Origin: an uncultured Chloroflexia bacterium
Lineage (GTDB): Bacteria > Chloroflexota > Limnocylindria > Limnocylindrales > CSP1-4
DNA: 64,000 nt
Direction of reading: 5' to 3'
Assembly: GCA_963746855.1 (NCBI GenBank)
Contig: CAVVDC010000015.1
Span: 55,295 to 119,294, forward strand
The translations under genes were made by a program, and so were the position numbers. Shown piece after piece: positions 36,074 through 51,006 of this stretch. Every line of letters starts with the position of its first letter. The stretch's first letter is position 1. The notes beneath the pieces are model-generated. The model was not told where the DNA came from. It saw only the letters and a program-made list of their open reading frames with translations, and ran no database searches.

Positions 36074-37549
36074 CTAGGTCGGCAGCGTGGAGATCGCCGC
36101 GGCAGCCGACTCGACGAACTCGATGATGGCGTTGGGGAAGATCCCGAGCACGATCGTCAACGCCGTCGCAGCCGCCAGTCCGCCCCAGACCAGGGCGCCG
36201 TGCCGCGGTGCCGGCGCGTCGGTCGCTGGATCGCGCATGTACATGTAGACGATGACTCGCAGGTAGTAGAAGGCGGCCACGGCCGCGTTCAGGACAGCGA
36301 TGACGGCCAGGAACGACAGGGGCCCGCCCGCCTCGACCGCGGCGAGGATGACGTAGGCCTTGGCGAAGAACCCGGCCGTCGGCGGGATCCCGGTCAGGGA
36401 CAGCAGGAACAGGGCCATGAGGATGCCCAGCAGCGGCTCCTTGCGCCCGAGCCCCGCGAAGGTGTCGAGCTGGGACGTCACGCCGGTCCGCTTCTGGAGC
36501 GCCGCGACGACCGCGAACGCCCCGAGGTTCATGAACGTGTAGGCGGCACCGTAGTAGAGCAGGCCCTCGAGGCCCTGGATCTCGCCGGCCGCGTAGGCCG
36601 CCAGCCCGACCAGCATGTAGCCGGTGTGGGCGATCGAGCTGTACCCCAGCATCCGCTTGACGTTGTCCTGGGTCAGCGCGACCAGGTTGCCGAGGGTCAT
36701 CGTGAGCGTGGATAGCACGAGCATGACCGGCATCCACCACTCGGCCAGCGGGCCGAGCGCCTCGACGAAGAGCCGCAGGATGAGCGCGAACGCGCCGATC
36801 TTCGGGCCGACCGAGAGGTAGCCCGTGACGGGCGTCGGCGAGCCCTGGTAGGCGTCCGGCGTCCAGTAGTGGAACGGGACCGCCGCGATCTTGAACGCGA
36901 CACCCGTGGTCATGAACGCGAGCCCCATCGCCAGTCCCGGTGAGAGCGGGGCGTTCCCCGCCACGATGTCGCCAAGCGCGGCGGCGACATCATCGACCCG
37001 TGTCGAACCGGTCAGGCCGAAGACGAACGCGAGTCCGAACAGGAAGATCGCCGAGCTGAAGGAGCCCAGCAGGAAGTACTTGATCGCACCCTCGGTCGAG
37101 TAGGAATCGGTCTTGTGGAACCCGGCCAGGAGGTAGCCCGGCAGCACCATCAGCTCGAGCCCGAGGAACAGGAGCAGCAGATCGGTCCCACCGGCCAGCA
37201 GCATCGCGCCGGTCATCGCGAAGACGAGGACGATGGAGAACTCCGCCACCGGCAGCCCGCGAGGCAGGAGGTAATCCGGGGCGAACATGATCGTCAGCAC
37301 GACGATCGAGATGAACAGGATGTCGAGGAAGCTCGTGAGCGCGTCGACCGTGTACGCACCGCCGAACGCGGTCGCCTCGGTCGTCCCGATCGCGATGGTC
37401 GCCGCGGTCGTCAGCGCGAGCCCGATGAAGGCCGTCCCGACCGCCAGCGCGGTGTGCCCGGGCCGGATCAGGTCGACGACGAGGATCGCGACCGCCGTCA
37501 GGATCGCGAGGACGATCGGGCCGATGGTGACCAGGTCCTGCCAGCTCAA
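36074..37549 (-). CDS. nuoN: NADH-quinone oxidoreductase subunit N
   Basis: 491-aa polytopic antiporter-like subunit (FHYWTPDAYQGSPTPVT). Last gene of the nuo operon. Its start overlaps the nuoM stop by 4 nt. Confidence 0.9.
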   Translation of the reverse strand: MSWQDLVTIGPIVLAILTAVAILVVDLIRPGHTALAVGTAFIGLALTTAATIAIGTTEATAFGGAYTVDALTSFLDILFISIVVLTIMFAPDYLLPRGLPVAEFSIVLVFAMTGAMLLAGGTDLLLLFLGLELMVLPGYLLAGFHKTDSYSTEGAIKYFLLGSFSSAIFLFGLAFVFGLTGSTRVDDVAAALGDIVAGNAPLSPGLAMGLAFMTTGVAFKIAAVPFHYWTPDAYQGSPTPVTGYLSVGPKIGAFALILRLFVEALGPLAEWWMPVMLVLSTLTMTLGNLVALTQDNVKRMLGYSSIAHTGYMLVGLAAYAAGEIQGLEGLLYYGAAYTFMNLGAFAVVAALQKRTGVTSQLDTFAGLGRKEPLLGILMALFLLSLTGIPPTAGFFAKAYVILAAVEAGGPLSFLAVIAVLNAAVAAFYYLRVIVYMYMRDPATDAPAPRHGALVWGGLAAATALTIVLGIFPNAIIEFVESAAAAISTLPT

Positions 37550-39207
37550 TGCGCGGCCCCGCCTTCAGCCGGTGCCGGCAGGGCGGTCTCGACCCGCCCG
37601 TTCATCAGCACGTAGACGATTCGGGCGAGGATGCCGCCCACAAGGAGGAGCAGCAGGCCGGCCACCACGACCGACGAGATCGCGATCGGCGTGCCGGCCT
37701 GGGCTGCGACGATCGTTTCGGTCACGGTCGTCTCGACGAGGTCGAGGAGGAGCCCGGGCTGGACGCCGAATACGACCACCAGGGCCGCCAGCGGCACGAG
37801 CGTCAGGATCTCAACGGGGGTCATGTCGGTCAGGTGGTCGCCCAGGCCCGCGAAGAAATCCGACAGCTCGCCGAACGCGATCCGGCCGAACATGTACAGC
37901 AGGTAGCCGGCGGCCAGGATCATGACGAAGGCGGCGATCGCGGCGGCTCCCGGGTTCACCACAAAGGTGCCCACCAGCACCAGGAACTCGCCGACGAAGC
38001 CCGAGAGGCCGGGCAGCCCGCCGGACGCGAAGACGAAGAACCCGAACACCGTGACGTAGACCGGCATCTTCGCCGACAGGCCGCCCATCCTCGCGATCGT
38101 CCGGTCGTGAGTCCGCTCATAGATGACGCCGACCAGCAGGAAGAGGGCGCCCGTGATGAGGCCGTGGTTGATCATCTGCAGGATCGCGCCCTGGATGCCC
38201 TGCTGGGTGAACACGAAGATCCCGAGCGTGACGAAGCCCATGTGGCTGACCGACGAATACGCCACGAGCCGCTTGAGGTCGGGCTGGACGAGGGCCACGA
38301 CCGCGCCGTAGATGATCGCGATGAGCGAGAGCACGATGATCGCCGGGGCGAACGTCTGCGCCGCATCGGGGAAGAGCGGCACGGCGAACCGGATGAAGCC
38401 GTACGCGCCGAGCTTCAGCATGATCGCGGCGAGGATCACGGAGCCGGCCGTCGGGGCCTCGGTGTGGGCGTCCGGCAGCCAGGTGTGGAACGGGAACATC
38501 GGCACCTTGATGGCGAACGCCAGGAAGAAGGCGATGAACGCCCCGAGTTGCAGCCCGTCGGAGAAGCCGCCGCCGGGCGTCGTGGCGAACGCGCGCAGGT
38601 TCTCGAAGTCGAACGCGCCCGCCCAGCTGCCCGTCGCGTCCTGGTAGAAGAACGCGGTCGCCAGGATGGCCACGAGCATCAGCAGCGAGCCGACGAGCGT
38701 GTACAGCACGAACTTGATCGTCGCGTAGATCCGGTTCGCGCCGCCCCAGATCCCGATGATCAGGTACATCGGGACCAGGACGATCTCCCAGAAGATGTAG
38801 AAGAGGAAGAGGTCGAGCGCGAGGAAGACCCCGATCATGCCGACCTCGAGGACGAGGAAGGCGATCATGTACTCCTTGATCCGGGTCTGGATCGGGGCGA
38901 AGCTCGCGAGGATGCTGATCCAGCTCAGGGTGGTCGTCAGCACGACCAGCGCGATCGAGAGCCCATCGGCGCCGAGCTTGTACTGGATGCCGAAGAACGG
39001 GATCCAGTCGACGGTCGTCTCGAACTCGAAGCCCTCGTTGCCGGGCAGGTACGCCACCAGCAGGACGAGCGAGACGACCCAGGCCAGGAGCGCGAACCCG
39101 AGCGCGACCGGACGCGCGACGCTCGTCGGCAGGACCGCGACGGCGATCGCGCCGACGAGCGGCACGAACGTGACGATGGTCAGGATCGGCAGGCTGGCGA
39201 GGTCCAT
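37546..39207 (-). CDS. nuoM: NADH-quinone oxidoreductase subunit M
   Basis: Start MDLASLPILTIVTFVPLVGA at ATG 39207, just after the nuoL stop. Contains FPFHTWLPDAHTEAPTAGSVILA. The track extension to 39564 is out of frame over nuoL. Confidence 0.9.
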   Translation of the reverse strand: MDLASLPILTIVTFVPLVGAIAVAVLPTSVARPVALGFALLAWVVSLVLLVAYLPGNEGFEFETTVDWIPFFGIQYKLGADGLSIALVVLTTTLSWISILASFAPIQTRIKEYMIAFLVLEVGMIGVFLALDLFLFYIFWEIVLVPMYLIIGIWGGANRIYATIKFVLYTLVGSLLMLVAILATAFFYQDATGSWAGAFDFENLRAFATTPGGGFSDGLQLGAFIAFFLAFAIKVPMFPFHTWLPDAHTEAPTAGSVILAAIMLKLGAYGFIRFAVPLFPDAAQTFAPAIIVLSLIAIIYGAVVALVQPDLKRLVAYSSVSHMGFVTLGIFVFTQQGIQGAILQMINHGLITGALFLLVGVIYERTHDRTIARMGGLSAKMPVYVTVFGFFVFASGGLPGLSGFVGEFLVLVGTFVVNPGAAAIAAFVMILAAGYLLYMFGRIAFGELSDFFAGLGDHLTDMTPVEILTLVPLAALVVVFGVQPGLLLDLVETTVTETIVAAQAGTPIAISSVVVAGLLLLLVGGILARIVYVLMNGRVETALPAPAEGGAAH

Positions 39208-39209
39208 GG

Positions 39210-41174
39210 TCAGCGCCCCACCAGCACGAGATACGAGCCGGCCATGACGATCAGCCCGACCGCGATGCCGAGGGCGTAGTTCTGCACCCGACCGGTCTGG
39301 ACGCGGCGGAGCCCGCGCCCCGACGCGACGGTCCCGCGGCCGACGGCGTTGACCGTGCCATCGACGACCTCGCGATCGAACCACCACATGGCGTTCGCGA
39401 CGCGGCCGCCGATGACCATGAACAGCAGGTGGTTGAGATCGTCGAACCACCACTTGTTGAGCGAAGCGCGATACAGGAAGGGCACCCTTGCGGTGAGCTC
39501 GCGGACGCGCTCCGGACGCGCGGGGAGGCGCAGGCCGAGGATCTCGGCGCCGAAGAGTCGCCATGCGATGGCGATACCGACGACCGCCACGGTCACGCTC
39601 GCGAGGATGAGGACGCCGTCGATGCCGGCCAGCTGGAAGGCCGCCTCCTCGTGCTGCAGGAGCTCGGTGGCCTCGGCGAACACGGGTTCCAGCCAGGCCT
39701 GGATCGTGCTCGCCCCGAACGGCAGCCCGAGCGCCATGCCCAGGACGACGGACGCGATGGCCAGCAGGATGAGCGGGATCGTCATGACCGGCGCCGACTC
39801 GTGGACCCGGTCCCAGACGGCCTTCGGGCCGCGGAACGCGCCCCAGAACGTCAGGCCCATCAAGCGGAACATGTAGAACGCGGTCAGCCCGGCGACGATG
39901 AAGCCGATGAGCCAGACCCAGGTGAACCCGAGCTTGAACGACTCGCCGAGGATCTCATCCTTCGAGAAGAAGCCGGCCAGCGGCGGGATGCCCGCGATGG
40001 CCAAGGAGCCGATGAGCATCGTCACGTAGGTGATCGGGATCTTCTTCGAAAGGCCGCCCATGTGGCGCATGTCCTGTTCCTCGTGGACGGCGTGGATGAC
40101 CGAACCCGAGCCGAGGAACAACAGCCCCTTGAAGAAGCCGTGGGTCATGAGATGGAAGATGGCCGCGGTGAACGCCCCGACGCCCAGGGCCGCGAACATG
40201 TAGCCGAGCTGGGACAGCGTCGAATAGGCGAGCACGCGCTTGATGTCGGTCTGGGTCATCGCGATCGAGGCCGCGAGGATGGCCGTGAAGATGCCGATGG
40301 CTGCGACGACGACCATCGTGTCCGGCGACGCGGCGAAGAGCAGGTTCGCGCGGGCGACGAGATAGACGCCGGCGTTGACCATCGTCGCGGCATGGATGAG
40401 GGCCGAGACTGGGGTCGGGCCCTCCATCGCGTCGGGCAGCCAGACGTGCAGTGGGAACTGCGCGCTCTTGCCCATCGCGCCCGCGAAGACCAGGAGCGCG
40501 ACCACGGCGATCGGGATCGGGAACGCCACGAGGGTCGGGCTCAGCATGACCTCGATGGAGTCGCGGATGTTCAGCGTCCCGGTGTTCGCGAAGATGGCCA
40601 TGATCCCGAGCGCGAACCCGACGTCGCCGACGCGGTTGACGATGAACGCCTTCTTGGCCGCCAGGGCCGCCGAGCGCTTCCGGTACCAGAAGCCGATGAG
40701 CAGGTAGCTCGAGAGGCCCACCAGCTCCCAGGCGACGAACACGACCAGCCACGAGTCAGCCAGGACCAGCAGCAGCATGCTGAACATGAACAGGTTGAGG
40801 TAGGCGAAGAAGCGCCAGTAGCCCGGGTCGTGGCTCATGTAGCCGATCGAGTAGACGTGGACGAGCAGGCCGATGGTCGTGACGACGATCAGCAGGCAGG
40901 CCGTCAGCTGGTCGACGAAGAAGCCGACCTCGACCGTGAACTGGCCGGCCGGGATCCAGTCGAAGTAGGTCACGCCGTAGCCGTGCTCGCCGAACGGCTC
41001 GGCGCCGGTCAGCGCGCCGTACGCCACGGCCATCGCGATCGCCCAGACGGCGAGGATGGCGAGGACCGGGATCCAGTGGGCCTGCTTGCCCAGCCGGCGG
41101 CCGATGAGGGCCGTGATCGCGAAGCCGGCGAGCGGCAGGCTGACGAGCAGCGGCAGGAGCGACTCGGGGCTCAC
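39210..41174 (-). CDS. nuoL: NADH-quinone oxidoreductase subunit L
   Basis: GTG 41174 ([18 protein letters not shown]) overlaps the nuoK stop (GTGA). Contains [30 protein letters not shown]. Confidence 0.9.
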
Positions 41175-41482
41175 TGGCGCATCACGTCGTACTCGTCGAC
41201 GAGCGGTGTCTTCTTGTTGCGGTAGATAGCGATGACGATGGCCAGCCCGACCGTTGCCTCGGCGGCCGCCACGGCCATGACCATCAGCGCGATGACCGAT
41301 GCCTGGGACCCGAGCTCCGGGATGAACGCCCCGAACGCGAGGATCGAGAGGTTGACGGCGTTGAGCATCAACTCGATCGACATCAGCATGCTGATGGCGT
41401 TGCGCCGGGCCAGGAACCCGAACGACCCGATGGCGAACAGGATCCCAGACAGGACGAGATAGGCGTCGAGCGAATCGCTCAC
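41171..41482 (-). CDS. nuoK: NADH-quinone oxidoreductase subunit K
   Basis: 103 aa, three TM helices: [35 protein letters not shown]...[14 protein letters not shown] 41482 overlaps the nuoJ stop. Confidence 0.9.
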
Positions 41483-42072
41483 GACGGGCCGCCCGGTTCC
41501 CGCTTGGCCAGGAAGACGCCACCGACGACGGCGGCGAGCAGCAGGACGCTGACGATCTCGAAGGGCAGCACGAAGTCGCTGAACAGCAGGCGCGAGAGCG
41601 CGTCGGTGCCCTGGTGGATCCGTTCGCCCACCTCGTGCCAGTCCGTGGCGCTGACGGCCAGCGCGATGAGCACGGCGATGATGACCGCGGCGATCGCCGC
41701 CGGCCCGGCCTGCGTCTGGAAGACCAGGCGGCTGGGCGCGTCCTTGGTCTGGGTCAGCATGATGGCGAACAGGATCAGGACGCTGATGGCCCCGATGTAG
41801 ACGATCACCTGGGCGGCCCCGAGCAGCGGCGCGCCCATCAGCACGTAGATGCCGGCCAGGGCCCCGAAGCACACGATCATGGCCAGGCCGCAGCGGATGA
41901 TGTCGCGCATCGTGACCACGAGCAGGCCGCTGATGAGCATCAGGGCGGCGAGGACGAAGAACAGGGCGTCGGCCCAGTCCTGGCCGAGGAACAGGAGCAT
42001 CACCCCGGCGAAGCCGAGGACCGCGCCGACCACCATGGCCGCGAGGACGATGGGGATGAGCTTCTTGAGCAC
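41479..42072 (-). CDS. nuoJ: NADH-quinone oxidoreductase subunit J
   Basis: 197 aa, five TM helices. [31 protein letters not shown]...[21 protein letters not shown] is typical of NuoJ. Confidence 0.88.
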
Positions 42073-42078
42073 GACCCG

Positions 42079-44703
42079 CTACTCGTGGCCGCCGGGGCCG
42101 AGGGCCGGACCGGCGCCGTGGCCGTTGCCGTGGGCATGGCCGTTGCCGTGGTCGTGCCCGTTGCCCGAGCGTGCCGCGATGCCCGGGATCGTCGCCGGGA
42201 GGACGGGCAGCATGCGGGCTGGATCGAACGTACGACCCTCGGCCGCCGCGGCGTCCACCCAGTTCCGCTCGCGGCGGACGTACGTCACCTCGGTCTCGCG
42301 GGCGATCTCGGCGAGCGAGATGAGGTCGATGGTCGGTTCCGCGCGACTGGTGTGGGCGAGCTCGATATCGCCGCCGTCGCGCAGGGCGTCGTACGGACAC
42401 GCATCGACACAGATGCCGCACAGGATGCAGCGGCTCTCATCGACCTCGTACTTCTCGAGCACCCGCGGCTTGGGCATGAGCGCGCCCGTCGGACAGGTCT
42501 CGGCGCACCGCCCGCAGGACACGCACGGCGTGTCGTTGAGGCTCATGTCCAGCGGCGTCGTCACGAGCGTGTCGAAGCCGATGCGCATGAAGTCGTAGCA
42601 GGCCGCGCCGACGACCTCGGAGCACACCTGGGCACACCGGCCGCAGTCGATGCAGCGCGACGGCTCGCGCAGGATGAAGGCGTGCGAATCGTCGCGGACG
42701 TAGTCGTGGTTGACGCCGGTGAAACGGTTCTCGGTCACGCTCCGGTAGCCGGCCCCCTGGTCGTACTGGGGCTCGAGCGTCTTGAGCGTCGTGCCGTATT
42801 CGATGCCGAGGCGGCGCAGGTCGCAGAAGCCGATGGCCTCGCACGTGCACTGCAGGCAGCGGGTCGATTCCGCCACCGCGTCCTCGCGTGTGTACGGAAG
42901 CTCGTACTCGATGTAGCTGTGGTTGCGCTCCTCGGCCTCGAGGGCCGTCATGCGGTAGCGCGGCTCCTTCACCTCGCCGGTGAAGGGCACGATGGACAGG
43001 AACTCGGGCTGCGGCTCGGCCAGCGTCTGGCGGGTCCGGATCGCGCCGAGGTCCAGGCCCTGGAGGAACGCGTCCACCGCGTAGGCCGCGCGCCGGCCCT
43101 CGGCGACGGCCTGCACGACGGTCGCGGCCCCGACCCGCACGTCGCCGGTGCCGAAGACCCCGGGACGCCCGGTCTCGAAGGTGACCGCGTCGGCCTTGAG
43201 CCGGTGCTGCTTGGTCGCCTCGACACCGTCGGCACCCGAGCCGATCCAGCTGAGGTCCGGTCCCTGCCCGATGGCGAGCAGGACGCGGTCGCAGGGCACG
43301 GTGAACTCCGTGCCGGGCGCCGGTTCCGGTCGCCGCCGACCGGACGCGTCCGGCTCGCCGAGCTGCATCCGGATGAATTCGACGCCGGTCACGTTGCCCG
43401 CCTTGTCGGTGATGACCCGGGTCGGGCCGGCCTGGAAGATGGCCGTGACGCCCTCTTCGATGGCCTCGTGGACCTCGTTGGACGCGGGCATGTCCTTCAT
43501 GTCGCGGCGGTAGACGAGGGTCACGTCCTTCGCGCCCTGGCGGACCGAGGTCCGGCTGCAGTCCATCGAGGTGAACCCGCCGCCGATGACCACGACCCGC
43601 TTGCCGGCATGGTCCGGGTAGGGCAGGCCGAGCGTCGCGGTGCGCAGGTACTCGAGCCCGTCGAGGACCTCCGCCGCATCCTCGCCCGGGATGCCGAGCT
43701 TGTTGGTGTCGTAGCAGCCGATGGCCACGATCACGGCGTCGAAGCCCTGGTTGGTCAGGTCATCGAGCGTGAAGTCGGTGCCGAGCCCGGCGTTGCACAC
43801 GATCTTGCCGCCGAGCCGGGTGACCAATTCGTATTCGGCGTCGAGGACCTCGATCTTCGGCAGCCGGTACTGCGGGATGCCGTAGCGCAGCATCCCGCCC
43901 GGGGCCGGATCGCGCTCGAAGACGGTGACGTCGTGTCCGGCGATGAGCAGGTAGAACGCGGCGGCCATCCCGGCCGGGCCCGACCCGATGACCGCGGCGC
44001 GGCGGCCACTCGGCGCCTGGCGCTCGAACGGCAGCGGCGGGTCGACGCCCTCGTCGAGCATCGCCTTGAGTACCTGGTCGCCGGCGTAGCGGTGGCTGTC
44101 GCGGATGGCGATCGCCTCGTCGACCTCGTCACGCCGGCAGTGCTCCTCGCACGGCGCCGGGCAGACCCGACCGAGGACGGACGGGAACGGGATCGTCCGC
44201 TTGAAGATGCGCGTGCTCTCGCGCCAGTTGGCTTCGGCGTTGGCCTTGAGGAAGCCCGGGATGTCGATGTGGCTCGGGCACTTGTTCTGGCAGGGCGGCA
44301 GGCAGTAGGCGTTGTGGTCGCTGAAGATCAGCTCGAGGTTCGTCCGGCGCAACCGGCGGACTTCCTCGGTCTGGGTCTGGACCTTCATCCCCGGTTCGCA
44401 CGTCCGCGAGCAGCTGATGGGCGGGTGCTCCTCGCCCTCGACCTCGACGACGCACATCCGGCACGCCCCGAAGCCGGGCAGCTTCGGCTCGTAGCACAGG
44501 GTCGGGATCTCGATCCCGTTGTCGCGGCAGACCTCGAGGATGGTCTGCCCGGCGAAGCCCTCGACGACCCGCCCGTCGACCTCGATGCGGATCCGCGGCG
44601 ACGTCTGAGGCCGTTGGGGCGAGCGGGTCTCCAGGAGACGCTCGGCGAGCGAATCCGTCTCCGTGTCGGGGTGGCTGTCGGGACGCGTCAACAGGTCGGC
44701 CAT
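42079..44703 (-). CDS. 874-aa Fe-S flavoprotein fusion in the position of nuoG. Domain order: NuoG-type [2Fe-2S] domain, GltD-like NAD(P)H/FAD oxidoreductase, C4 motif, 2x[4Fe-4S] domain, orphan NuoI-like C-terminal half-motif, His-rich tail.
   Basis: aa 37-125: [10 protein letters not shown]...[16 protein letters not shown]...SCSRTC. aa 130-550: H-x3-C-x3-C-x3-[52 protein letters not shown]. aa 616-627: [12 protein letters not shown]. aa 684-737: [11 protein letters not shown]...[16 protein letters not shown]. aa 750-800: [28 protein letters not shown]. Tail: [17 protein letters not shown]. No molybdopterin-like NuoG C-terminal domain. Start trimmed to ATG 44703, 8 nt after the upstream stop. 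Confidence 0.8.
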
Positions 44704-44711
44704 GGGTCGCC

Positions 44712-46037
44712 TTATCGGCTCGCGCCGACGGCCACCGCGATCGGGTGGCAGACGCCGGCAGGGCAGGAGCTGTTCAGGAGGTGCTCGTCCAGTTCCGCCC
44801 GGAAGTATCGCATCACGCTCGTCAGCGGGAGGGTCGCCAGCCGCTCGTGATCGCACAGCGCCGAACCGACGATGTCGGACGAGAGGTCGGCCAGGAGTTC
44901 GACATCGGTCGGGCGCGGCCGCCCGTCCACGGCGCGATCCGCGATCTCGACGAGCCGTCGCGTGCCGATCCGGCAGGGGATCGTCTTGCCGCAGGCCTCG
45001 CTCGCGCAGAACCCGGTCAGGAGCCGGGCGAGGTCGACGACGCAGGCACGGTCATCGGCGACGACGACCGAACCCGAGCCGATGTGGGCGCCGGCCGCGC
45101 GAAGCGGCTCGAAGTCGTACGCCGTGTTCAGCTGGTCGGCGGGCAGCAGGCCGCCCGACGGGCCACCGACCAGGACCGCCTTGATCGAGCGACCTGCCGG
45201 CAGGTCGCCGCCGAGCGCCACGACCTTGCGCAACGGCGTCCCGAGCGGCACTTCGGCGATCCCGTCCCGTGACGGGGTCCGGACCTGGACCAGCACGGTC
45301 CCCGGGCTCGTCTTCGAGCCCGTCTTCGCGAACTCGTCGGCGCCATGGCGGACGATCCAGCCGACGGCGGCCAGGGTCTGCACGTTGTGGACGACCGTCG
45401 GGGCGTCCCACAGGCCCCGCTCCGCAGGGTGTGGGGGCCGCTGCTCCGGCTGGCCGCGCTTGCCCTCGAGGGCCTTGAGCAGAACGGTCTCCTCGCCCAG
45501 CATGTAGGCGCCCTGGACGGGCCGGACCGTGACGGCCAGGTCGGTCCGCGGGCCGAAGGCGTCCGGGCCGATGTATCCGGCCTCCTCCGCCGCGCCGATC
45601 GCCGACTCGAGCCCGCGGATCGCCTCGGCGTCCTCGGCCCGGACCGCGATGATCGCCTCGGTCGCGCCCGTGGCGAAGGCCGCGATGGCCAGCCCCGCGA
45701 TGACGGCATACGGGTCGCGTTCGAGCAGGAACCGGTCCGTCCCCGAGGCCGGGTCCGCGCCGTAGCCATTGGCGACGACGAACCGGCGCGGGGCGTCGCT
45801 CGCGGCGGCGGTCCGCCACTTCTCGGCGGCGAGGTAGCCGGCGCCGCCCCGGCCCCGCAGGCCGGACGCCGCGATGACCCCGATGGTCGCGCTCGGACCG
45901 AGGTCGCGAACCGCCTTCGCCAAGCCCTCGAAGGCGCCCGACCGGACCGCGGCGTCGAGGTCGGTGGGATCGTCGGCATCGGCACGCTCGAGCAGGATCG
46001 TCGGCCATCCGGCCGGGGTCTTGAGGCGATCGACCAC
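44712..46037 (-). CDS. NuoF-like (51-kDa family) subunit with degenerate nucleotide motif and one missing N3-cluster Cys
   Basis: GLRGRGGAGY, GAYMLGEETVLLKALEG, RPPHPAERGLWDAPTVVHNVQTLA. It has ANGYGADPASGTDR where NuoF has NADEsEPGtfKDR, and EACGKTIPCRIG where NuoF has ESCGKCtPCReG. GTG start at 46037. Confidence 0.8.
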   Translation of the reverse strand: MVDRLKTPAGWPTILLERADADDPTDLDAAVRSGAFEGLAKAVRDLGPSATIGVIAASGLRGRGGAGYLAAEKWRTAAASDAPRRFVVANGYGADPASGTDRFLLERDPYAVIAGLAIAAFATGATEAIIAVRAEDAEAIRGLESAIGAAEEAGYIGPDAFGPRTDLAVTVRPVQGAYMLGEETVLLKALEGKRGQPEQRPPHPAERGLWDAPTVVHNVQTLAAVGWIVRHGADEFAKTGSKTSPGTVLVQVRTPSRDGIAEVPLGTPLRKVVALGGDLPAGRSIKAVLVGGPSGGLLPADQLNTAYDFEPLRAAGAHIGSGSVVVADDRACVVDLARLLTGFCASEACGKTIPCRIGTRRLVEIADRAVDGRPRPTDVELLADLSSDIVGSALCDHERLATLPLTSVMRYFRAELDEHLLNSSCPAGVCHPIAVAVGASR

Positions 46038-46039: not shown

Positions 46040-46744
46040 TCAGGCGCTCGCCGCAGAGCTCGGACCGCGACCAGCGCGACCGGTGGGTCGCCCGAGCGCG
46101 GTCTCCAGCGCGGACACGTAGTCCGCCTCGGGCGGCCGGTGTGCGGTCACGGCCGCCGCCTGCTCGAGCGCCGCCGGCGGCTCGAAGCGCAGGTGCCCGT
46201 AGTAGCTGGCAGTGCCGTAGATCATCGCGTACCAGGCCCCGGTGAGATGGCTGATCCGCTTGAGCGCCGCGACCGGCAGGTAGCCGTACGCCGCCTGGGT
46301 CGCCTCGAGGATCTGCAGCATCCGGGCCGGATCGTGGTCGTGCTCCTCGAGGACGGCGTCCACGAGCGCGAGGTCGACCGGCGTGAAGGGGACAAAGGCG
46401 GGATCAGGGACGGTGCGCCCGGAGCGCCGGAGCGCCGATTCCTCGCGCCGCTCGCCGTAGGTCTCCGGGGCGCCCCAGTGGACGTGATAGCGGCCGCGCG
46501 TGTCGATGCCGCCCATGTCGATGCACTCGATCGGGCAGGCCTGGGCACACTGGAAGCAGGTCTCGCACTTGAGCGTGCCCCACTCGTCGTATAGCAGCTG
46601 GAGGCGGCCGCGGAACTTGCCCGGGACGTCGAGGCGGACCTCGGGATACATCACCGTGACCTTCGGTTCGAAGAACCGGCGCAAGGTCAGGCTCATGCCC
46701 TTGACGATGCCGAGGCCGGGAACCAGGCCGGACAGGAAGCTCAT
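46040..46744 (-). CDS. Chimeric subunit: NuoI N-terminal half (single 4Fe-4S motif) fused to a NuoE-like N-terminal helical domain without the [2Fe-2S] part
   Basis: aa 1-90: LRRFFEPKVTVMYPE...KFRGRLQLL...KCETCFQCAQACPIECID (NuoI-like). aa ~120-190: VDAVLEEHDHDPARMLQILEATQAAYGYLPVAALKRISHLTGAWYAMIYGTASYYGHLRFEP (NuoE/24-kDa N-terminal-like). No further Cys. ATG 46744 overlaps the nuoH stop (ATGA). Confidence 0.75.
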   Translation of the reverse strand: MSFLSGLVPGLGIVKGMSLTLRRFFEPKVTVMYPEVRLDVPGKFRGRLQLLYDEWGTLKCETCFQCAQACPIECIDMGGIDTRGRYHVHWGAPETYGERREESALRRSGRTVPDPAFVPFTPVDLALVDAVLEEHDHDPARMLQILEATQAAYGYLPVAALKRISHLTGAWYAMIYGTASYYGHLRFEPPAALEQAAAVTAHRPPEADYVSALETALGRPTGRAGRGPSSAASA

Positions 46745-48096
46745 GTCCCGGACCGCAGCGACGTGAACACGACGATGGCCGTCGCCGTGACGAACAGGTT
46801 CAGCAGCGACGCCGGCAGCAACCACTTCCAGGCGAAGTCCATCAACTGGTCGATCCGGACCCGCGGCAGCGTCCCACGCATCCAGACGAAGGTGAACACG
46901 AACACGTACGTCTTGCCCATGAACCACACGATCCCGGCGACCCAGTCGAGGCCGATGTAGGCCCAGGCGCCGATGAGCGCCATGATGAAGAGATTGGCGA
47001 GGACGAATCCGATGACCAGCGCCTGCCAGCCCTTGATCCGGGAACTCGCGATCCAGACCGGTGCGGCGAAGACGAGGGTCAGGACGAGCGGCACGATCGC
47101 CACGAGGAGCAGCAGTCCGATCCCAAGCGAACCCGGGTCGAACCCGACGGTCACGGGCCACGGCCACGGGAACGGCGCGTTCCAACCGCCGAGGAAGAGC
47201 GTGACGAAGAGCGCCGAGACGATGAACACGTTCACGTATTCGGCGAAGAAGAAGAAGCCGAAGCGCATCCCGGAGTACTCGGTCGCGAAGCCCGCGACGA
47301 TCTCCGAGTCCGCCTCGGTCAGGTCGAACGGGGTCCGGTTCGCTTCGGCGGTCGCCGCGATGAAGAAGATCAGCGCCCCCAGCGGCTGCTGGAAGACGTA
47401 CCAGTCGGTGAACCAGCCGGACTGGTTCTGGACGATCTGGTTGAGGCTCATCGTCCCGGCGAGGAGGATGAGCCCGACGACCGACAGCGTCAGCGGGATC
47501 TCGTAGGAGACGACCTGGGCCGCGGCCCGCAGGCCGCCGAGCAGCGAGTACTTGTTGTAGCTGGACCAGCCGGCCATCAGCAGGCCGACGACGGACAGGC
47601 CACCGATGGCGAAGAAGTACAGCAGCCCGAGGTTCAGGTCCTGCCCGAAGAGCCCCGGCGCGAACGGGATGACCAGCAGGCTCATGACGCTCGCCAGGTA
47701 CACGACGACCGGCGCCCAGGTGAAGACGATCGGATCGGCCCCGGTCGGGGTGAAGTCCTCCTTCATCAGGACCTTCAGGCCGTGCACCACCGACAGCAGC
47801 GACCCGAACGGGCCCACCCGATCCGGCCCGATCCGAAGGTTCATCAGCGCGATGACCTTCATCTCCATGTAGATGATCAGGAACGCGGTCGGGATCGTGA
47901 TCAGCAGGATGACCGTCGCCGCGACCACGAACCGGACGATCGGCAGGTTGTCGGCCAGGATGTCGATGACGGTCGGGCCGAGGAACACGATGGCCGCGAC
48001 CGAACCGACGGTCAGCGCGATCAACAGCGGCACGACCGTGAACACGATCTTGCCCGGCACCGTCAGCCGGTTCCAACTTTTGGCGATCACGGTCAC
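46741..48096 (-). CDS. nuoH: NADH-quinone oxidoreductase subunit H (with ~45-aa N-terminal extension)
   Basis: MEMKVIALMNLRIGPDRVGPFGSLLSVVHGLKVLMKEDF...NRTPFDLTEADSEIVAGFATEYSGMRFGFFFFAEY. Confidence 0.92.
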   Translation of the reverse strand: MTVIAKSWNRLTVPGKIVFTVVPLLIALTVGSVAAIVFLGPTVIDILADNLPIVRFVVAATVILLITIPTAFLIIYMEMKVIALMNLRIGPDRVGPFGSLLSVVHGLKVLMKEDFTPTGADPIVFTWAPVVVYLASVMSLLVIPFAPGLFGQDLNLGLLYFFAIGGLSVVGLLMAGWSSYNKYSLLGGLRAAAQVVSYEIPLTLSVVGLILLAGTMSLNQIVQNQSGWFTDWYVFQQPLGALIFFIAATAEANRTPFDLTEADSEIVAGFATEYSGMRFGFFFFAEYVNVFIVSALFVTLFLGGWNAPFPWPWPVTVGFDPGSLGIGLLLLVAIVPLVLTLVFAAPVWIASSRIKGWQALVIGFVLANLFIMALIGAWAYIGLDWVAGIVWFMGKTYVFVFTFVWMRGTLPRVRIDQLMDFAWKWLLPASLLNLFVTATAIVVFTSLRSGT

Positions 48097-48133: not shown

Positions 48134-49354
48134 TCACTTGTCGACGCCTCCCATGATCGGGTCCAGGCTGGCCATGACGGCCATGGTGTCGGCGATCAAG
48201 TGCCCGGGCATCATCAGGCCGACGGCCTGGAGGTGGATGAACGAGGGGTCGTGGATACGCATCCGGAACGGCTGGTCGGTGCCGTCGCTCACGACATAGG
48301 CGGCGTACTGGCCGCGCGGTCCTTCCACCGCCGCGTACGCCCTGCCGGGCCGCGGCCGCAGGAGCCGCGGCAGCTTGGCCATGATCGGGCCGTCGGGCAT
48401 CTGGTGGAGGCATTGGTCGATGATGCGCAGGCTCTGCTTGATCTCATCCATCCGGAGCAGGTAACGCGCCAGGCAGTCGCCCTCCGTCCGGGTCGGGATG
48501 TCGAACTCGAGCTCCGGGAAGACGCTATACGGATGCGCCCGCCGGACGTCGAACGGCACGCCCGTCGCCCGCAGGTTCGGGCCCGTCATCGCCATCCGGA
48601 GTGCCGCGGGCGAGTCGATGACGCCGAGTCCGCGCATCCGGCGCACGAAGATCTCGTTCTCGTTGAGCAGCGCGTTGCCGGCTTCGATCTGCTCGGTCGC
48701 GTGGCTCATCCAGTCGCCGAGCCGGCTCAGGAACTCGTGGTTGAGGTCGCCGTTGACGCCGCCGATGCGCATGTAGTTGAAGAGCATCCGCTGGCCCGTC
48801 AGGGACGCGAGCATGTCGACGATCTCGTCGCGCTCGATGAACGACCACAGGATCGGTGTCAGGCCGCCCAGGTCCAGGGCCATCCAGCCGAGGAAGAGGG
48901 CGTGGCTGGCGATCCGGTTGAGCTCGGTGGCCAGGACGCGGATGTACTCCGCCCGGCGCGGCACTTGGACGTCGAGCAGCTTCTCGAACGCCAGGACGCC
49001 CGGCCACTCGCAGTAGAGCGAGCTGACGTACTCGAGCGGGTCCAGGTAGCAGATCGCCTGGTGGTAGTCCGCGTTCTCGCACAGCTTCTCGACGCCCCGG
49101 TGGAGGTAGCCCAGGACCGGGTCGAGGTCGACGACCTTCTCGCCGTCGAGCTTGAGCACGACCCGCAGGACGCCGTGGGTGGACGGGTGCTGCGGGCCCA
49201 TGTTGATGAGCATCTGGCCGTCGCCGAGGGTGTAGAACTCGGCCTCGCGCTCCGTGCGTGGCGGATACGGCGGGACCGGCTCGAAGACGCCCAGGTCGCG
49301 GTCGAGGGTGACGCGCGGGTCGTCGGAGGGCGGCCGGTCGGTGGTGGTCGTCAT
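48134..49354 (-). CDS. nuoD: NADH-quinone oxidoreductase subunit D
   Basis: NMGPQHPSTHGVLRVVLKLDGEKV...LGYLHRGVEKLCE...ERYLLRMDE; 406 aa. Confidence 0.93.
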   Translation of the reverse strand: MTTTTDRPPSDDPRVTLDRDLGVFEPVPPYPPRTEREAEFYTLGDGQMLINMGPQHPSTHGVLRVVLKLDGEKVVDLDPVLGYLHRGVEKLCENADYHQAICYLDPLEYVSSLYCEWPGVLAFEKLLDVQVPRRAEYIRVLATELNRIASHALFLGWMALDLGGLTPILWSFIERDEIVDMLASLTGQRMLFNYMRIGGVNGDLNHEFLSRLGDWMSHATEQIEAGNALLNENEIFVRRMRGLGVIDSPAALRMAMTGPNLRATGVPFDVRRAHPYSVFPELEFDIPTRTEGDCLARYLLRMDEIKQSLRIIDQCLHQMPDGPIMAKLPRLLRPRPGRAYAAVEGPRGQYAAYVVSDGTDQPFRMRIHDPSFIHLQAVGLMMPGHLIADTMAVMASLDPIMGGVDK

Positions 49355-50659: not shown

Positions 50660-51006
50660 GTCAGGGCTCCCTTCCGCCAGGCGTAGGCCAGCCCCAGCAG
50701 GAGGATCGCCACGAAGATGAGCATGCTCACCAGGCCGCCCAGGAGCAGGTCGCGGAACACGAGGGCCCAGAGGTAGATGAACACGACCTCGATGTCGAAC
50801 GCGACGAACAACAGGGCGTAGATGTAGAACGACAGGCCGAACCGGCCGTGCGTGTCACCGTACGTGTCGATGCCGGATTCGTAGGGCAGGCCCTTGTGCT
50901 CGTCGCCGCGGTTCCGATGCGAGATCAGCCAGGCGGCGCCGAACGTCACGAACACGAACGAGACGCCCGCGAAGGCAAAGCCCACGACGTACCAGATGCC
51001 GGTCAA
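50650..51006 (-). CDS. nuoA: NADH-quinone oxidoreductase subunit A
   Basis: 118 aa, three TM helices: YESGIDTYGDTHGRFGLSFYIYALLFVAFDIEVVFIYLWA. Confidence 0.9.
   Translation of the reverse strand: MTGIWYVVGFAFAGVSFVFVTFGAAWLISHRNRGDEHKGLPYESGIDTYGDTHGRFGLSFYIYALLFVAFDIEVVFIYLWALVFRDLLLGGLVSMLIFVAILLLGLAYAWRKGALTWR

What the first reader, a model, noticed from the sequence alone, without database searches (positions are those of the whole stretch)
42079..44703. NuoG position occupied by a GltD-containing Fe-S flavoprotein lacking the molybdopterin-like domain
The protein starts like NuoG, with [2Fe-2S] ligands in [16 protein letters not shown]...SCSRTC. At the point where NuoG has H-x3-C-x2-C-x5-C, it continues as H-x3-C-x3-C-x3-CP ([15 protein letters not shown]).

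From there it becomes a full glutamate-synthase-small-subunit-like module:
- [12 protein letters not shown].
- FAD site [13 protein letters not shown].
- NAD(P)H site [13 protein letters not shown] with YRRD.
- GVFGTGDV.

It then returns to NuoG/FdhA-like Fe-S motifs. The large NuoG C-terminal domain is absent.

The input module would therefore carry a second flavin/NAD(P)H site in addition to the NuoF-like subunit. GltD-like and NuoF/NuoE-like modules are each used in flavin-based electron-bifurcating enzymes (the NfnAB and HydABC/Bfu families). A complex I that uses NADPH, or two pyridine nucleotides, is conceivable, but that is speculation.
Basis: partly seen in the sequence, partly recalled or inferred. 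Interest (0 to 1): 0.78.

Follow-up and report, generated by a model that had tools for sequence, protein, structure and literature searches.

The report
Complex I with a spliced-in NADPH module
A respiratory complex I operon from a soil or freshwater Chloroflexota bacterium has replaced the usual NADH-input subunits with a module taken from a soluble NADPH/NADH transhydrogenase and spliced into subunit NuoI. It probably lets the proton pump draw electrons from NADPH, and I found no description of this design in the literature.

Summary
An 874-aa protein is encoded on the minus strand at 42079-44703, and every quoted motif is present.

It is not a modified NuoG. From residue 37 to about 772 it is a full-length homologue of StnC/NfnA, the large subunit of the Stn/NfnABC (Bfu-family) transhydrogenases. 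That means a [2Fe-2S] domain, an inserted GltD-like FAD/NADPH module, and NuoG-type [4Fe-4S] motifs.

- Where StnC enters its FdhF-like domain, this protein carries the second Cys motif and C-terminal part of NuoI.
- The first half of NuoI is fused to a NuoE/StnA-like helical domain with no [2Fe-2S] cluster (46040-46744).
- No intact nuoI, nuoE or nuoG exists in the window.
- The NuoF-like gene is a trimmed Bfu-B core.

The gene order is A-B-C-D-H-[I'::E']-F'-[G'/GltD::I'']-J-K-L-M-N. It looks like stnABC-type genes inserted into nuoI of an 11-subunit core.

The design is syntenic in all 80 Limnocylindria loci fetched. A less reduced form occurs in Thermoleophilia. The two lineages form one clade.

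The elements required for bifurcation are absent here. I therefore read it as a non-bifurcating, proton-pumping NAD(P)H:quinone oxidoreductase with an NADPH-type FAD site. The function is inferred, not shown. Nine literature searches found no description.

The parts
50650..51006 (-). nuoA
   Evidence: Pfam Oxidored_q4, E 2e-31.
49922..50659 (-). nuoB. The N2 ligands are present (GLACC..., GDCTCSGG, GCPPRP).
   Evidence: Pfam Oxidored_q6. Alignment to E. coli NuoB.
49371..49919 (-). nuoC. The likely GTG start at 49919 lies just after the nuoB stop.
   Evidence: Pfam Complex1_30kDa. Start-codon scan.
48134..49354 (-). nuoD. The quinone-site His (GPQHPSTHG) and Tyr (LDPLEY) are kept.
   Evidence: Pfam Complex1_49kDa. 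Alignment to E. coli NuoCD.
46741..48096 (-). nuoH
   Evidence: Pfam NADHdh, E 2e-106. NCBIfam NuoH.
46040..46744 (-). Chimeric gene nuoI'::nuoE' (234 aa). Its ATG overlaps the nuoH stop.
   Evidence: Translation. NCBIfam and PDB hits fall in two halves. The gene is conserved in 58 or more loci.
46481..46744 (-). Residues 1-88 of the chimera. This is the N-terminal half of NuoI, with the first CxxCxxCxxxCP motif (CETCFQCAQACP).
   Evidence: It matches TIGR01971 NuoI model positions 1-62 and TYKY/NuoI chains over residues 13-77. E. coli NuoI residues 3-88 hit here by tblastn.
46172..46390 (-). Residues 119-191 of the chimera. This is a NuoE/StnA-like N-terminal helical domain. It has no Cys, and the thioredoxin-like [2Fe-2S] domain is absent.
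   Evidence: The best PDB hits are 9bov_C and StnA 8oh5_A. The sequence has no Cys after residue 74. Limnocylindria-type orthologues (over 80% identical) are 217-244 aa long.
44712..46037 (-). NuoF-like gene (441 aa). It is a Bfu-B/HydB-type core without the N-terminal and C-terminal cluster domains. The second Cys of N3 is replaced by Thr.
   Evidence: Pfam Complex1_51K plus NADH_4Fe-4S. PDB scores are about 340 bits for HydB/StnB/NfnB against 260 bits for NuoF. Motif census in 71 orthologues.
42079..44703 (-). The finding: an StnC/NfnA-like Fe-S flavoprotein fused to the C-terminal half of NuoI (874 aa plus stop).
44368..44595 (-). Residues 37-112: [2Fe-2S] domain, equivalent to N1b/A1.
   Evidence: Pfam Fer2_4. 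The Cys residues are invariant in alignment A1.
43054..44316 (-). Residues 130-550: the His130/Cys junction and the inserted GltD-like module. The module has two [4Fe-4S] sites, the FAD site GSGPAG, the NADPH-type site GGGFTSMD...YRRD, and His204 at the position of StnC Lys170.
   Evidence: Pfam Fer4_20 and Pyr_redox_2. Alignments to StnC, E. coli GltD and PreT. pLDDT is mostly above 85.
42466..42882 (-). Residues 608-746: the CxxCxCx5C motif and the NuoG/HydA-type 2x[4Fe-4S] ferredoxin-like domain ([11 protein letters not shown] ... [12 protein letters not shown]).
   Evidence: Aligned to StnC. The Cys residues are invariant in A1. Weak Pfam Fer4_Nqo3 hit.
42304..42456 (-). Residues 750-800: the C-terminal half of NuoI ([16 protein letters not shown]...ELAH).
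   Evidence: It matches TIGR01971 NuoI model positions 75-116. Rejoined with the other half, it gives one stretch over model positions 1-115, 100 bits. E. coli NuoI residues 60-129 hit here. It is not folded by AF2 on its own.
42082..42201 (-). Residues 835-874: a variable His/Gly-rich tail.
   Evidence: Translation. Low conservation.
41479..42072 (-). nuoJ
   Evidence: Pfam Oxidored_q3.
41171..41482 (-). nuoK
   Evidence: Pfam Oxidored_q2. Start-codon scan.
39210..41174 (-). nuoL
   Evidence: Pfam Proton_antipo_N/M/C. Start-codon scan.
37546..39207 (-). nuoM
   Evidence: Pfam Proton_antipo_M. Start-codon scan.
36074..37549 (-). nuoN
   Evidence: Pfam Proton_antipo_M.

Best explanation
The 13-gene operon at 36074-51006 (minus strand) encodes a complex-I-type, proton-pumping quinone reductase. 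Its electron-input module did not come from NuoEFG. It came from a soluble Stn/NfnABC-type (Bfu-family) transhydrogenase whose three genes sit inside nuoI of an 11-subunit core.

The module is held on the quinone module by two covalent fusions:
- NuoI's N-half is fused to the NuoE/StnA-like helical domain.
- The StnC/NfnA-like flavoprotein is fused to NuoI's C-half.

The two NuoI halves together would bind clusters N6a and N6b. The fusions would replace the docking role of the missing NuoG/FdhF-like domain.

Proposed electron path (inferred):
- NADPH gives a hydride to FAD in the GltD-like domain.
- Electrons pass through the two GltD clusters to the His-ligated N5-like cluster, then to the N4-like cluster.
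- They leave through the second cluster of the NuoG ferredoxin-like domain. This branch is a dead end in Stn.
- They continue through N6a/N6b and N2 to quinone.

The NuoF-like FMN site joins the same wire through N3 and the [2Fe-2S] cluster. It is a second, probably NADH-specific, entry if it is still active.

The bifurcation elements C1 and B3/B4 are absent, so this Limnocylindria enzyme does not bifurcate.

Shown here: the anatomy, the homologies, the conservation and the motifs. Inferred: assembly of the split NuoI, the exit path, the substrate and the direction of operation.
For: Homology of the finding:
- Residues 37-772 align to StnC 8oh5_C (E 3e-144) and Csac NfnA 9bov_A (E 1e-161).
- The AF2 model is confident for residues 33-746. 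Its top Foldseek hits are 9bov_A, 8oh5_C and 9n5u_A, with TMq 0.70-0.73.

Partner subunits:
- The E-like and F-like partners match StnA/NfnC and HydB/StnB better than they match NuoE and NuoF.

Split NuoI:
- The two halves match complementary parts of TIGR01971 (model positions 1-62 and 75-116).
- Rejoined in silico they give one 100-bit match over positions 1-115 of 121. The Thermoleophilia lineage gives 98.6 bits.
- E. coli NuoI hits only these two regions in the window, and NuoE hits nothing.

Quinone and membrane modules:
- The N2 ligands and the NuoD His and Tyr are intact.
- All membrane subunits are present.

NADPH-type site:
- The window reads [23 protein letters not shown]-dependent E. 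coli GltD reads [18 protein letters not shown], and StnC has YRR. NADH-dependent PreT has AREE.
- YRR is nearly invariant.

Conservation and distribution:
- Synteny is conserved in all 80 Limnocylindria loci. The fusion protein averages 87% identity.
- The same design occurs in Thermoleophilia contigs L082-L085.
- The complex-I-linked proteins are monophyletic, 100 of 100 NJ bootstraps.

No bifurcation:
- The elements Li et al. (PMC11829005) require for bifurcation are missing.
Against: - No biochemical or expression data exist.
- Assembly of the split NuoI is inferred from sequence only. AF2 left residues 747-874 unfolded, and a single-sequence model of the rejoined NuoI failed with pLDDT 34.
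- The exit route through the FS4A-like cluster is a guess from linear proximity.
- In Stn, deleting the FdhF domain destroyed the complex (PMC10482914). A truncated StnC therefore needs another scaffold.
- The F-like subunit is the least conserved in the operon (72% mean identity) and has altered FMN/NADH-pocket residues and N3 ligation. The second entry may be dead.
- The direction of operation (oxidising NADPH or reducing NADP+) cannot be read from sequence.
- I could not check whether these genomes also carry a canonical nuoEFG.
Confidence: 0.55

Rival explanations
1. NADPH-only complex I. The NuoF-like and NuoE-like proteins are vestigial scaffolds with no working FMN/NADH site, and the GltD-type FAD is the sole entry point.
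For: - The F-like subunit is the least conserved in the operon: 71.7% mean identity against 87% for the fusion protein and 88.6% for NuoD.
- The second Cys of N3 is Thr/Ser in 71 of 71 orthologues.
- E. coli D92 and E93 are replaced by Tyr and Gly. The PR motif is PE, and NNVET is xNVQT.
- The window's own FMN loop reads GAGYLAA instead of GAGFPTG.
- The NuoE-like part has lost its cluster domain.
- A Thermoleophilia sub-branch shows the opposite decay: the NADPH site is lost and the B subunit is intact. This suggests either site alone is enough.
Against: - GRGGAG, K73/W74, Y178 and GEET are invariant or nearly so. GEET includes the Glu that selects NADH in E. coli NuoF (my own knowledge: Morina et al. 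2011).
- Three N3 Cys are 100% conserved. A new Cys five residues upstream is present in 69 of 71 orthologues, which looks like a ligand swap and not a loss.
- A pure scaffold would be expected to lose these residues.
Confidence: 0.2
2. The enzyme runs mainly in reverse or sideways. Either it uses the proton-motive force to reduce NADP+ from quinol and supply biosynthetic NADPH, or it acts as an internal NADH-to-NADP+ transhydrogenase wire.
For: - The parent Stn/Nfn enzymes are reversible transhydrogenases that connect an FMN/NAD site and an FAD/NADP site through the same cluster chain.
- Complex I is reversible (established knowledge).
- Both flavin sites appear to be retained.
Against: - Nothing in the sequence indicates direction.
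- Without bifurcation or coupling, the transhydrogenase reaction would only equilibrate the two pools.
- I have no information on the hosts' autotrophy or other NADPH sources. The window holds no CO2-fixation or hydrogenase genes among the ORFs scanned.
Confidence: 0.15
3. It is an electron-bifurcating or confurcating complex I, in which NAD(P)H oxidation is split between quinone and ferredoxin in the Bfu manner.
For: - The module descends from bifurcating Bfu enzymes.
- Thermoleophilia relatives keep a full Bfu-type B subunit: an N-terminal Trx-like [2Fe-2S] domain, canonical FMN and N3 motifs, and a C-terminal 2x[4Fe-4S] domain. They also keep a NuoE-like domain with its [2Fe-2S] Cys residues.
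Against: - In the window organism the C1 cluster domain and the B3/B4 domain are absent.
- B1 has altered ligation.
- These are exactly the elements reported as required for bifurcation (PMC11829005).
- This reading can apply only to the Thermoleophilia version.
Confidence: 0.05
4. The gene is an ordinary soluble enzyme, such as a glutamate synthase small subunit, an Stn-like transhydrogenase or an FDH-like protein, that merely lies inside a nuo operon.
For: Public annotations call it 'FAD-dependent oxidoreductase', 'formate dehydrogenase major subunit' or 'glutamate synthase beta subunit-like'. The best NCBIfam hit is PRK12814, 'putative NADPH-dependent glutamate synthase small subunit', and it scores below its cut-off.
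Against: - No gltB-sized partner appears among the ORFs scanned.
- The operon would otherwise lack NuoI, which is indispensable.
- The NuoI halves are fused to this protein and to its neighbour.
- The genes are tightly packed or overlapping.
- Synteny is identical in two phyla at 35-59% identity.
- No molybdopterin domain is present.
Confidence: 0.03

Closest known systems
StnABC (Sporomusa ovata) and NfnABC (Caldicellulosiruptor saccharolyticus, Thermococcus sibiricus): Bfu-family NADPH:NAD+/ferredoxin transhydrogenases. PDB 8oh5, 9bov, 9n5u.
   Same: - The large subunit has the same [2Fe-2S] domain, inserted GltD-like FAD/NADPH module and NuoG-type ferredoxin-like domain, aligned over residues 37-772.
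- The partner subunits are related to StnA/NfnC and StnB/NfnB.
- The YRR NADPH signature and the Arg equivalent to StnC R239 are kept.
   Different: - There is no FdhF-like C-terminal domain. A NuoI C-half takes its place.
- His stands where StnC has its 'strictly conserved' Lys170.
- The NuoE-like partner lacks the C1 [2Fe-2S] domain and carries a NuoI N-half.
- The NuoF-like partner lacks the B2-B5 domains.
- The genes are embedded in a membrane nuo operon and do not form a soluble three-gene unit.
Canonical 14-subunit respiratory complex I (NuoA-N), for example E. coli or T. thermophilus
   Same: - All seven membrane subunits are present, together with NuoB, NuoC and NuoD with N2 ligands and the quinone-site His and Tyr.
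- An FMN-type NuoF-like subunit is present.
- A NuoG-like N-terminal Fe-S domain is present.
   Different: - The gene order is A-B-C-D-H-[I'E']-F'-[G'GltD I'']-J-N.
- NuoI is split over two polypeptides.
- There is no N1a cluster.
- There is no NuoG C-terminal domain.
- There is an additional FAD/NADPH site.
- The input subunits are closer to Bfu enzymes than to NuoEFG.
11-subunit 'ancestral' complex I-like enzymes (nuoABCDHIJKLMN without EFG) and their alternative input modules (FpoF, NdhS/ferredoxin)
   Same: - If the three inserted genes are removed and the NuoI halves rejoined, exactly the A-B-C-D-H-I-J-K-L-M-N order remains.
- The concept of a modular input device plugged onto a common core is the same.
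   Different: Here the input device is genetically inserted into nuoI and covalently fused to both halves. I found no described precedent for this.
Mbx-like operons of Thermotoga and proteobacteria, in which a GltD-related flavoprotein replaces NuoI (Degli Esposti 2015, PMC4758237)
   Same: A GltD-type NAD(P)H flavoprotein takes the NuoI position of a complex-I-related membrane complex.
   Different: Those are Mrp/Mbx-type complexes without NuoE/F/G-like parts. They are thought to reduce NAD(P)+ from ferredoxin. They have no Stn-type large subunit and no split NuoI. I did not compare the sequences.
NfnAB/NfnSL and glutamate synthase small subunit GltD
   Same: The GltD-like module has the same fold and the same cofactor motifs (Foldseek TMt about 0.8; alignment).
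   Different: - These are stand-alone proteins of about 470 aa with partners NfnA/S or GltB.
- The non-Cys ligand of the FAD-proximal cluster is Glu, where the window protein has His.
- Neither partner is present in the window.

Membership tests
Stn/NfnABC large subunit (StnC/NfnA) | N-terminal [2Fe-2S] ferredoxin domain | tested here: met
   Pfam Fer2_4, E 8e-22. Cys70, 81, 84 and 98 are invariant in A1.
Stn/NfnABC large subunit (StnC/NfnA) | GltD-like insertion with two [4Fe-4S] sites, FAD and an NADPH-type Rossmann fold | tested here: met
   Pfam Fer4_20 and Pyr_redox_2. Aligned to StnC. YRR matches NADPH-dependent enzymes and differs from NADH-dependent PreT. pLDDT is around 90.
Stn/NfnABC large subunit (StnC/NfnA) | NuoG/HydA-type ferredoxin-like domain after the insertion | tested here: met
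   The alignment to 8oh5_C and 9bov_A runs through residue about 770. Foldseek TMq is 0.70-0.73.
Stn/NfnABC large subunit (StnC/NfnA) | C-terminal FdhF-like (molybdopterin-fold) domain, needed for tetramer assembly | tested here: not met
   The protein ends about 100 residues after the last shared motif. No molybdopterin Pfam hit appears. StnC residues 683-1172 have no counterpart.
Stn/NfnABC large subunit (StnC/NfnA) | Lys170 ligand of the FAD-proximal cluster ('strictly conserved in StnC', PMC10482914) | tested here: not met
   His204 occupies this position. It is 100% conserved in the 81 aligned sequences and is also His in Thermoleophilia. It is Lys in the Stn-like proteins aligned.
Bfu-type electron-bifurcating enzyme | Flavobicluster B1-FMN-C1: [4Fe-4S] in BfuB and [2Fe-2S] in BfuC | tested here: not met
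   The NuoE-like part has no Cys and no thioredoxin-like domain. B1/N3 has only three of the four canonical Cys.
Bfu-type electron-bifurcating enzyme | BfuB C-terminal domain with B3/B4 clusters, which is the ferredoxin site | tested here: not met
   The F-like protein is 441 aa and ends at the CPAGVC motif. The domain is present in the Thermoleophilia relatives.
Respiratory complex I (NuoA-N) | Seven membrane subunits A, H, J, K, L, M and N | tested here: met
   Pfam hits for all seven.
Respiratory complex I (NuoA-N) | Quinone module: NuoB with four N2 Cys, NuoC, and NuoD with the quinone-site His and Tyr | tested here: met
   Alignments to E. coli NuoB and NuoCD. Pfam hits.
Respiratory complex I (NuoA-N) | NuoI: a single polypeptide with two CxxCxxCxxxCP motifs (N6a/N6b) | tested here: inconclusive
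   Both motifs and the flanking NuoI sequence are present, but on two different proteins. The rejoined sequence scores 100 bits against a 113-bit cut-off. Assembly was not tested.
Respiratory complex I (NuoA-N) | NuoE with the N1a [2Fe-2S] cluster | tested here: not met
   Only the N-terminal helical domain remains.
Respiratory complex I (NuoA-N) | NuoF with an FMN/NADH site and a four-Cys N3 cluster | tested here: inconclusive
   The Gly loop, GEET and Y178 are kept. D92Y, E93G, E220Q and R198E are changed, and the second N3 Cys is Thr/Ser with a new upstream Cys.
Respiratory complex I (NuoA-N) | NuoG with a large molybdopterin-like C-terminal domain, and gene order D-E-F-G-H-I | tested here: not met
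   Only NuoG residues 4-133 have a match. TIGR01973 scores 98 bits against a cut-off of 470. The gene order is D-H-[I'E']-F-[G'I'']-J.
Glutamate synthase small subunit (GltD) | A roughly 470-aa protein that partners with the GltB large subunit | tested here: not met
   The GltD-like part is an internal module of an 874-aa protein. NCBIfam GltD-family models score below their cut-offs. No GltB-like ORF appears among those scanned.

The most novel reading that the evidence does not exclude
This is a third, independent way of equipping the 11-subunit complex I core with a pyridine-nucleotide input. A whole Stn/NfnABC transhydrogenase was inserted into nuoI. In Limnocylindria the result is a natural proton-pumping NADPH:quinone oxidoreductase, or an energy-linked NADH/NADPH/quinone node. 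In the less reduced Thermoleophilia form, the result is a complex I that keeps a complete Bfu flavobicluster and a ferredoxin site. That form could bifurcate NAD(P)H electrons between quinone and ferredoxin.
Probability: 0.3. Interest if true: 0.9.

Novelty: new variant of a known kind. Interest (0 to 1): 0.78.

Why it matters
Complex I is regarded as NADH-specific. Making it accept NADPH has required protein engineering.

A natural complex I with a dedicated NADPH-type FAD site would change how respiration and redox balance are modelled for two very abundant and almost uncultured groups. These are Limnocylindria (Chloroflexota) in soil and freshwater, and Thermoleophilia (Actinomycetota). Pathway tools currently score these operons as 'complex I lacking NuoE/G/I'.

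It also gives a clear case of modular evolution. A soluble bifurcating enzyme was captured by gene insertion into nuoI and anchored by two fusions, and the two lineages then decayed in complementary ways.

The Thermoleophilia form makes it possible to ask directly whether a Bfu-type bifurcating module can be wired to a quinone-reducing proton pump.

Tried and rejected
- **Modified NuoG.** Rejected. Only the first roughly 100 residues and the ferredoxin-like domain resemble NuoG. The whole protein aligns to StnC/NfnA.
- **The last two Cys motifs ([12 protein letters not shown] and [12 protein letters not shown]) form a self-contained NuoI-like ferredoxin domain.** Considered because E. coli NuoI aligns to both. 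Judged less likely for three reasons. The first of the two aligns to StnC's partner of motif [11 protein letters not shown] and is modelled confidently with it. That pairing would leave both motif b and the NuoI-N motif in the neighbouring protein without partners. The NuoI HMM also matches the two halves in a complementary way.
- **AF2 of an artificially rejoined NuoI, single sequence.** pLDDT was 34, so it is uninformative.
- **'NuoF-like is dead'.** Not settled. See the first rival explanation.
- **Literature.** Nine searches found no description of this arrangement. They combined complex I, GltD, NuoG, NuoI, Bfu, NfnABC, Limnocylindria and Thermoleophilia. Papers outside the held library cannot be excluded.
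- **Cultured hosts.** Cluster look-ups returned only MAG-derived names.

Full report
**1. Observation**

The region 42079-44703 encodes an 874-aa protein on the minus strand. The start is ATG at 44703, eight bases after the stop of the upstream NuoF-like gene. The stop codon is at 42079-42081.

Pfam gives these domains:

| Domain | Residues | E-value |
|---|---|---|
| Fer2_4 | 37-112 | 8e-22 |
| Fer4_20 (Fe-S domain of GltD/DPD) | 134-213 | 7e-18 |
| Pyr_redox_2 | 236-536 | 2e-30 |
| Fer4_Nqo3 (weak) | 677-742 | 6e-5 |
| Fer4_7 | 727-773 | 9e-12 |

The NuoG His-cluster model matches only residues 119-135. No molybdopterin-type domain is found.

**2. What the protein is**

A sequence search of the PDB shows this is not a one-off rearrangement of NuoG:
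- Residues 37-772 align without large gaps to StnC of the Sporomusa ovata StnABC transhydrogenase (8oh5_C, E 3e-144).
- They align equally to NfnA of Caldicellulosiruptor saccharolyticus NfnABC (9bov_A, E 1e-161).
- They also match NfnA of Thermococcus sibiricus (9n5u_A).

An AlphaFold2 model built on a 51-sequence alignment is confident for residues 33-746. Its best structural matches are the same three chains, with TMq 0.70-0.73 over 712-733 columns. NfnB/NfnL, GltD and DPD follow, matching the inserted module only.

The published StnC description is a NuoG-like protein with a GltD-like NADPH/FAD domain inserted after the [2Fe-2S] domain (PMC10482914). It fits the window protein residue by residue up to StnC position about 700.

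**3. What differs from StnC**

*The C-terminus.* StnC continues into a 490-residue FdhF-like domain. At that point the window protein has [29 protein letters not shown] and a roughly 100-residue tail.
- This stretch is best matched by NuoI models (TIGR01971 positions 75-116).
- E. coli NuoI residues 60-129 also match it.

*The cluster ligand.* The Lys that ligates the FAD-proximal cluster in StnC (K170) is reported as strictly conserved in StnC. NfnB has Glu at this position. Here it is His204, invariant across the 81 aligned sequences.

**4. The neighbours**

The operon on the minus strand reads as follows:

| Gene | Coordinates |
|---|---|
| nuoA | 50650-51006 |
| nuoB | 49922-50659 |
| nuoC | 49371-49919 |
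| nuoD | 48134-49354 |
| nuoH | 46741-48096 |
| 234-aa chimera | 46040-46744 |
| NuoF-like | 44712-46037 |
| the finding | 42079-44703 |
| nuoJ | 41479-42072 |
| nuoK | 41171-41482 |
| nuoL | 39210-41174 |
| nuoM | 37546-39207 |
| nuoN | 36074-37549 |

*The chimera.*
- Residues 13-77 are the N-terminal half of NuoI/TYKY, including the first CxxCxxCxxxCP motif.
- Residues 119-191 are the N-terminal helical domain of a NuoE-like protein. The best matches are NfnC 9bov_C and StnA 8oh5_A.
- It has no Cys after the NuoI motif and no thioredoxin-like [2Fe-2S] domain.

*No other copies.* E. coli NuoI finds only these two regions in the 64-kb window. NuoE finds nothing, and NuoG finds only the N-terminus of the finding.

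*Test of the split-NuoI idea.* I joined chimera residues 1-88 to finding residues 750-836 and scanned NCBIfam.
- The NuoI model TIGR01971 matched in one stretch over positions 1-115 of 121, at 100 bits.
- The separate halves gave 51.8 bits (positions 1-62) and 39.8 bits (positions 75-116).
- The same construct from the Thermoleophilia lineage gave 98.6 bits.

*The NuoF-like protein.* It is closer to HydB/StnB/NfnB cores (about 340 bits) than to true NuoF (260 bits or less). It lacks their N-terminal and C-terminal cluster domains.

*The quinone module.* It looks ordinary. The NuoB N2 Cys residues and the NuoD His and Tyr are conserved.

**5. Reading of the gene order**

Removing the three inserted genes and rejoining the NuoI halves leaves A-B-C-D-H-I-J-K-L-M-N. 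That is the order of the 11-subunit 'ancestral' complex. The simplest history is insertion of a stnABC/nfnCBA-like unit into nuoI between its two cluster motifs, with in-frame fusion at both ends. This is an inference.

**6. Distribution and conservation**

*Limnocylindria.*
- A scan of species-representative genomes returned 552 relatives. The best 80 are all Chloroflexota/Limnocylindria MAGs at 83-96% identity.
- Wherever the contig allows, all 80 loci show the same 13-gene synteny.
- Mean identity to the window is 87.0% for the finding, 88.6% for NuoD, 80.0% for the chimera and 71.7% for the NuoF-like protein. The last is the lowest in the operon.

*Relatives outside the family.*
- A search of 1.84 billion cluster representatives shows a sharp drop from the window's own family to 46% identity or less, in Stn-like proteins of about 1000-1260 aa.
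- One exception is P0138 (816 aa, 45% identical). It ends in the same NuoI-like motif.

*Thermoleophilia.*
- The contigs carrying P0138 and its relatives (L082-L085) come from JGI and ENA metagenomes and from the NCBI MAG assembly GCA_040769125.1. Close homologues carry NCBI names of the form 'Thermoleophilia bacterium'.
- They have the same operon, but a 253-aa chimera that keeps the NuoE-type [2Fe-2S] Cys residues.
- They also have a roughly 637-aa full Bfu-type B subunit. It has an N-terminal Trx-like domain, canonical GRGGAGFP, NGDEGDPGAF, NNVET and SCGKCVPC motifs, and a C-terminal 2x[4Fe-4S] domain.
- Their subunits are 35-59% identical to the window's.

*Phylogeny.* In an NJ tree of the shared core, the complex-I-linked proteins of both phyla form one clade in 100 of 100 bootstraps, nested among Stn/NfnA-like proteins.

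*Shared derived characters*:
- His at the position of StnC Lys170.
- GGGFT where Stn-like proteins have GGGNT.
- The NuoI C-half.

**7. Cofactor sites**

*The NAD(P)H Rossmann fold of the finding*:

| Protein | Cofactor | Sequence |
|---|---|---|
| Window | (predicted NADPH) | [18 protein letters not shown] |
| E. coli GltD | NADPH | [18 protein letters not shown] |
| StnC | NADPH | ...IIYRRT |
| E. coli PreT | NADH | ...CVAREE |

YRR is nearly invariant in the family. I therefore predict NADPH at the FAD site.

*The NuoF-like subunit across 71 orthologues*:
- Kept: the Gly-rich loop, K/W, Y178 and GEET.
- Changed: E. coli D92/E93 become Tyr/Gly, PR becomes PE, and NNVET becomes xNVQT.
- The second N3 Cys is Thr or Ser in 71 of 71.
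- A new Cys five residues upstream of the first ligand is present in 69 of 71.

This looks like a remodelled site that is still under constraint. Whether it still oxidises NADH cannot be decided from sequence.

*Complementary decay.* A derived Thermoleophilia sub-branch (P0138, P0400, P0402, P0405, P0407) has lost the NADPH signature while keeping the canonical B subunit. This is the mirror image of the Limnocylindria state.

**8. Mechanism**

Li et al. (PMC11829005) give two requirements for Bfu-type bifurcation:
- The minimal site is the flavobicluster B1-FMN-C1.
- The B3/B4 clusters of the BfuB C-terminal domain are also needed.

The window enzyme lacks both C1 and B3/B4. It should therefore not bifurcate.

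In NfnABC the electron path is FAD-A7-A6-A3-A2-A1-B1-FMN, with a side branch into the Fdh-like domain.

I propose that in this enzyme the side branch has become the exit. This is the second cluster of the ferredoxin-like domain, whose motif lies 21 residues before the NuoI C-half. From there electrons go to N6a/N6b, N2 and quinone. FAD (NADPH) and possibly FMN (NADH) would then be two entries into one Y-shaped wire.

The two fusions would replace the docking function of the missing NuoG/FdhF-like domain. That function matters: deleting this domain in Stn abolished assembly.

Every step beyond the presence of the motifs is inferred.

**9. Known or new**

The domain architecture of the finding is known from StnC/NfnA. 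Three things appear new:
- The use of this module as the input device of a complex I.
- The split NuoI.
- The trimmed E and F partners.

The nearest precedent I found is the remark that a GltD-related flavoprotein replaces NuoI in Mbx-like operons (PMC4758237). Spero et al. noted that many Chloroflexi have 13 of 14 nuo genes, 'missing only NuoG' (PMC4453560). That may or may not concern related operons.

Public annotations are generic. Nine full-text searches found no description of this arrangement.

I classify it as a new variant of a known kind.

**10. Limits**
- There are no functional data.
- No multimer model could be made. The single-sequence model of the rejoined NuoI failed.
- AF2 left residues 747-874 unfolded. 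That is compatible with a missing partner, but also with a shallow alignment.
- I could not determine whether the same genomes carry a canonical nuoEFG/nuoI or a transhydrogenase.
- The NJ tree is a rough method.
- The 80 loci were selected by similarity to the finding, which inflates its apparent conservation relative to the other subunits.

Noticed in passing
window 2944-8319: yidC (2944-4131, minus strand), dnaA (5154-6734) and dnaN (7201-8319) lie here. The window therefore spans the replication-origin neighbourhood, and the nuo operon lies about 30-45 kb from it.
   Followed up: no
window 14310-21229: A 1786-aa ORF (15869-21229, plus strand) has protein-O-mannosyltransferase domains (PMT, PMT_4TMC) only in its C-terminal third. 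It sits next to a TMEM260-like O-mannosyltransferase (14310-15971, minus strand). This is an unusually large glycosyltransferase locus.
   Followed up: no
window 42082-42201 (residues 835-874 of the finding): The C-terminal tail is His/Gly-rich ([14 protein letters not shown]) and poorly conserved. Orthologues fall into two length classes, matching the query to residue about 842 or to residue 874. It may bind metal. Its role is unknown.
   Followed up: partly
L030/L035 and L028/L062: Two MAGs carry two copies of the fusion gene on separate contigs: MFD06298.bin.2.198 and SMAG_U924. These may be paralogous operons or strain mixtures in the bins.
   Followed up: no
L082 10001-12451 (P0138); also P0400, P0402, P0405, P0407: A derived Thermoleophilia sub-branch has lost the NADPH-type signature. 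GGGFT becomes GDGFA, YRR is lost, and the [12 protein letters not shown] loop is deleted in P0138. It keeps a full Bfu-type B subunit. This is complementary to the Limnocylindria state.
   Followed up: partly
L082 7330-10004; L084 10001-12675; L085 7311-9994: Thermoleophilia operons keep a NuoI-N::NuoE fusion with the [2Fe-2S] Cys residues. They also keep a roughly 637-aa B subunit with all Bfu cluster domains, that is a potentially bifurcating module on a complex I. In L084, POR-family, ACT-domain and AMP-binding (CoA-ligase-like) genes lie nearby.
   Followed up: partly
window 44712-46037 (NuoF-like, residues 344-355): An apparent ligand swap at cluster N3. The canonical second Cys is Thr/Ser in 71 of 71 orthologues, while a Cys five residues upstream of the first ligand is present in 69 of 71.
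   Followed up: partly
window 46741-48096 (nuoH): NuoH is 451 aa, against 325 aa in E. coli and 371 aa in the Thermoleophilia operon. It has extensions outside the Pfam domain, which covers residues 61-365.
   Followed up: no
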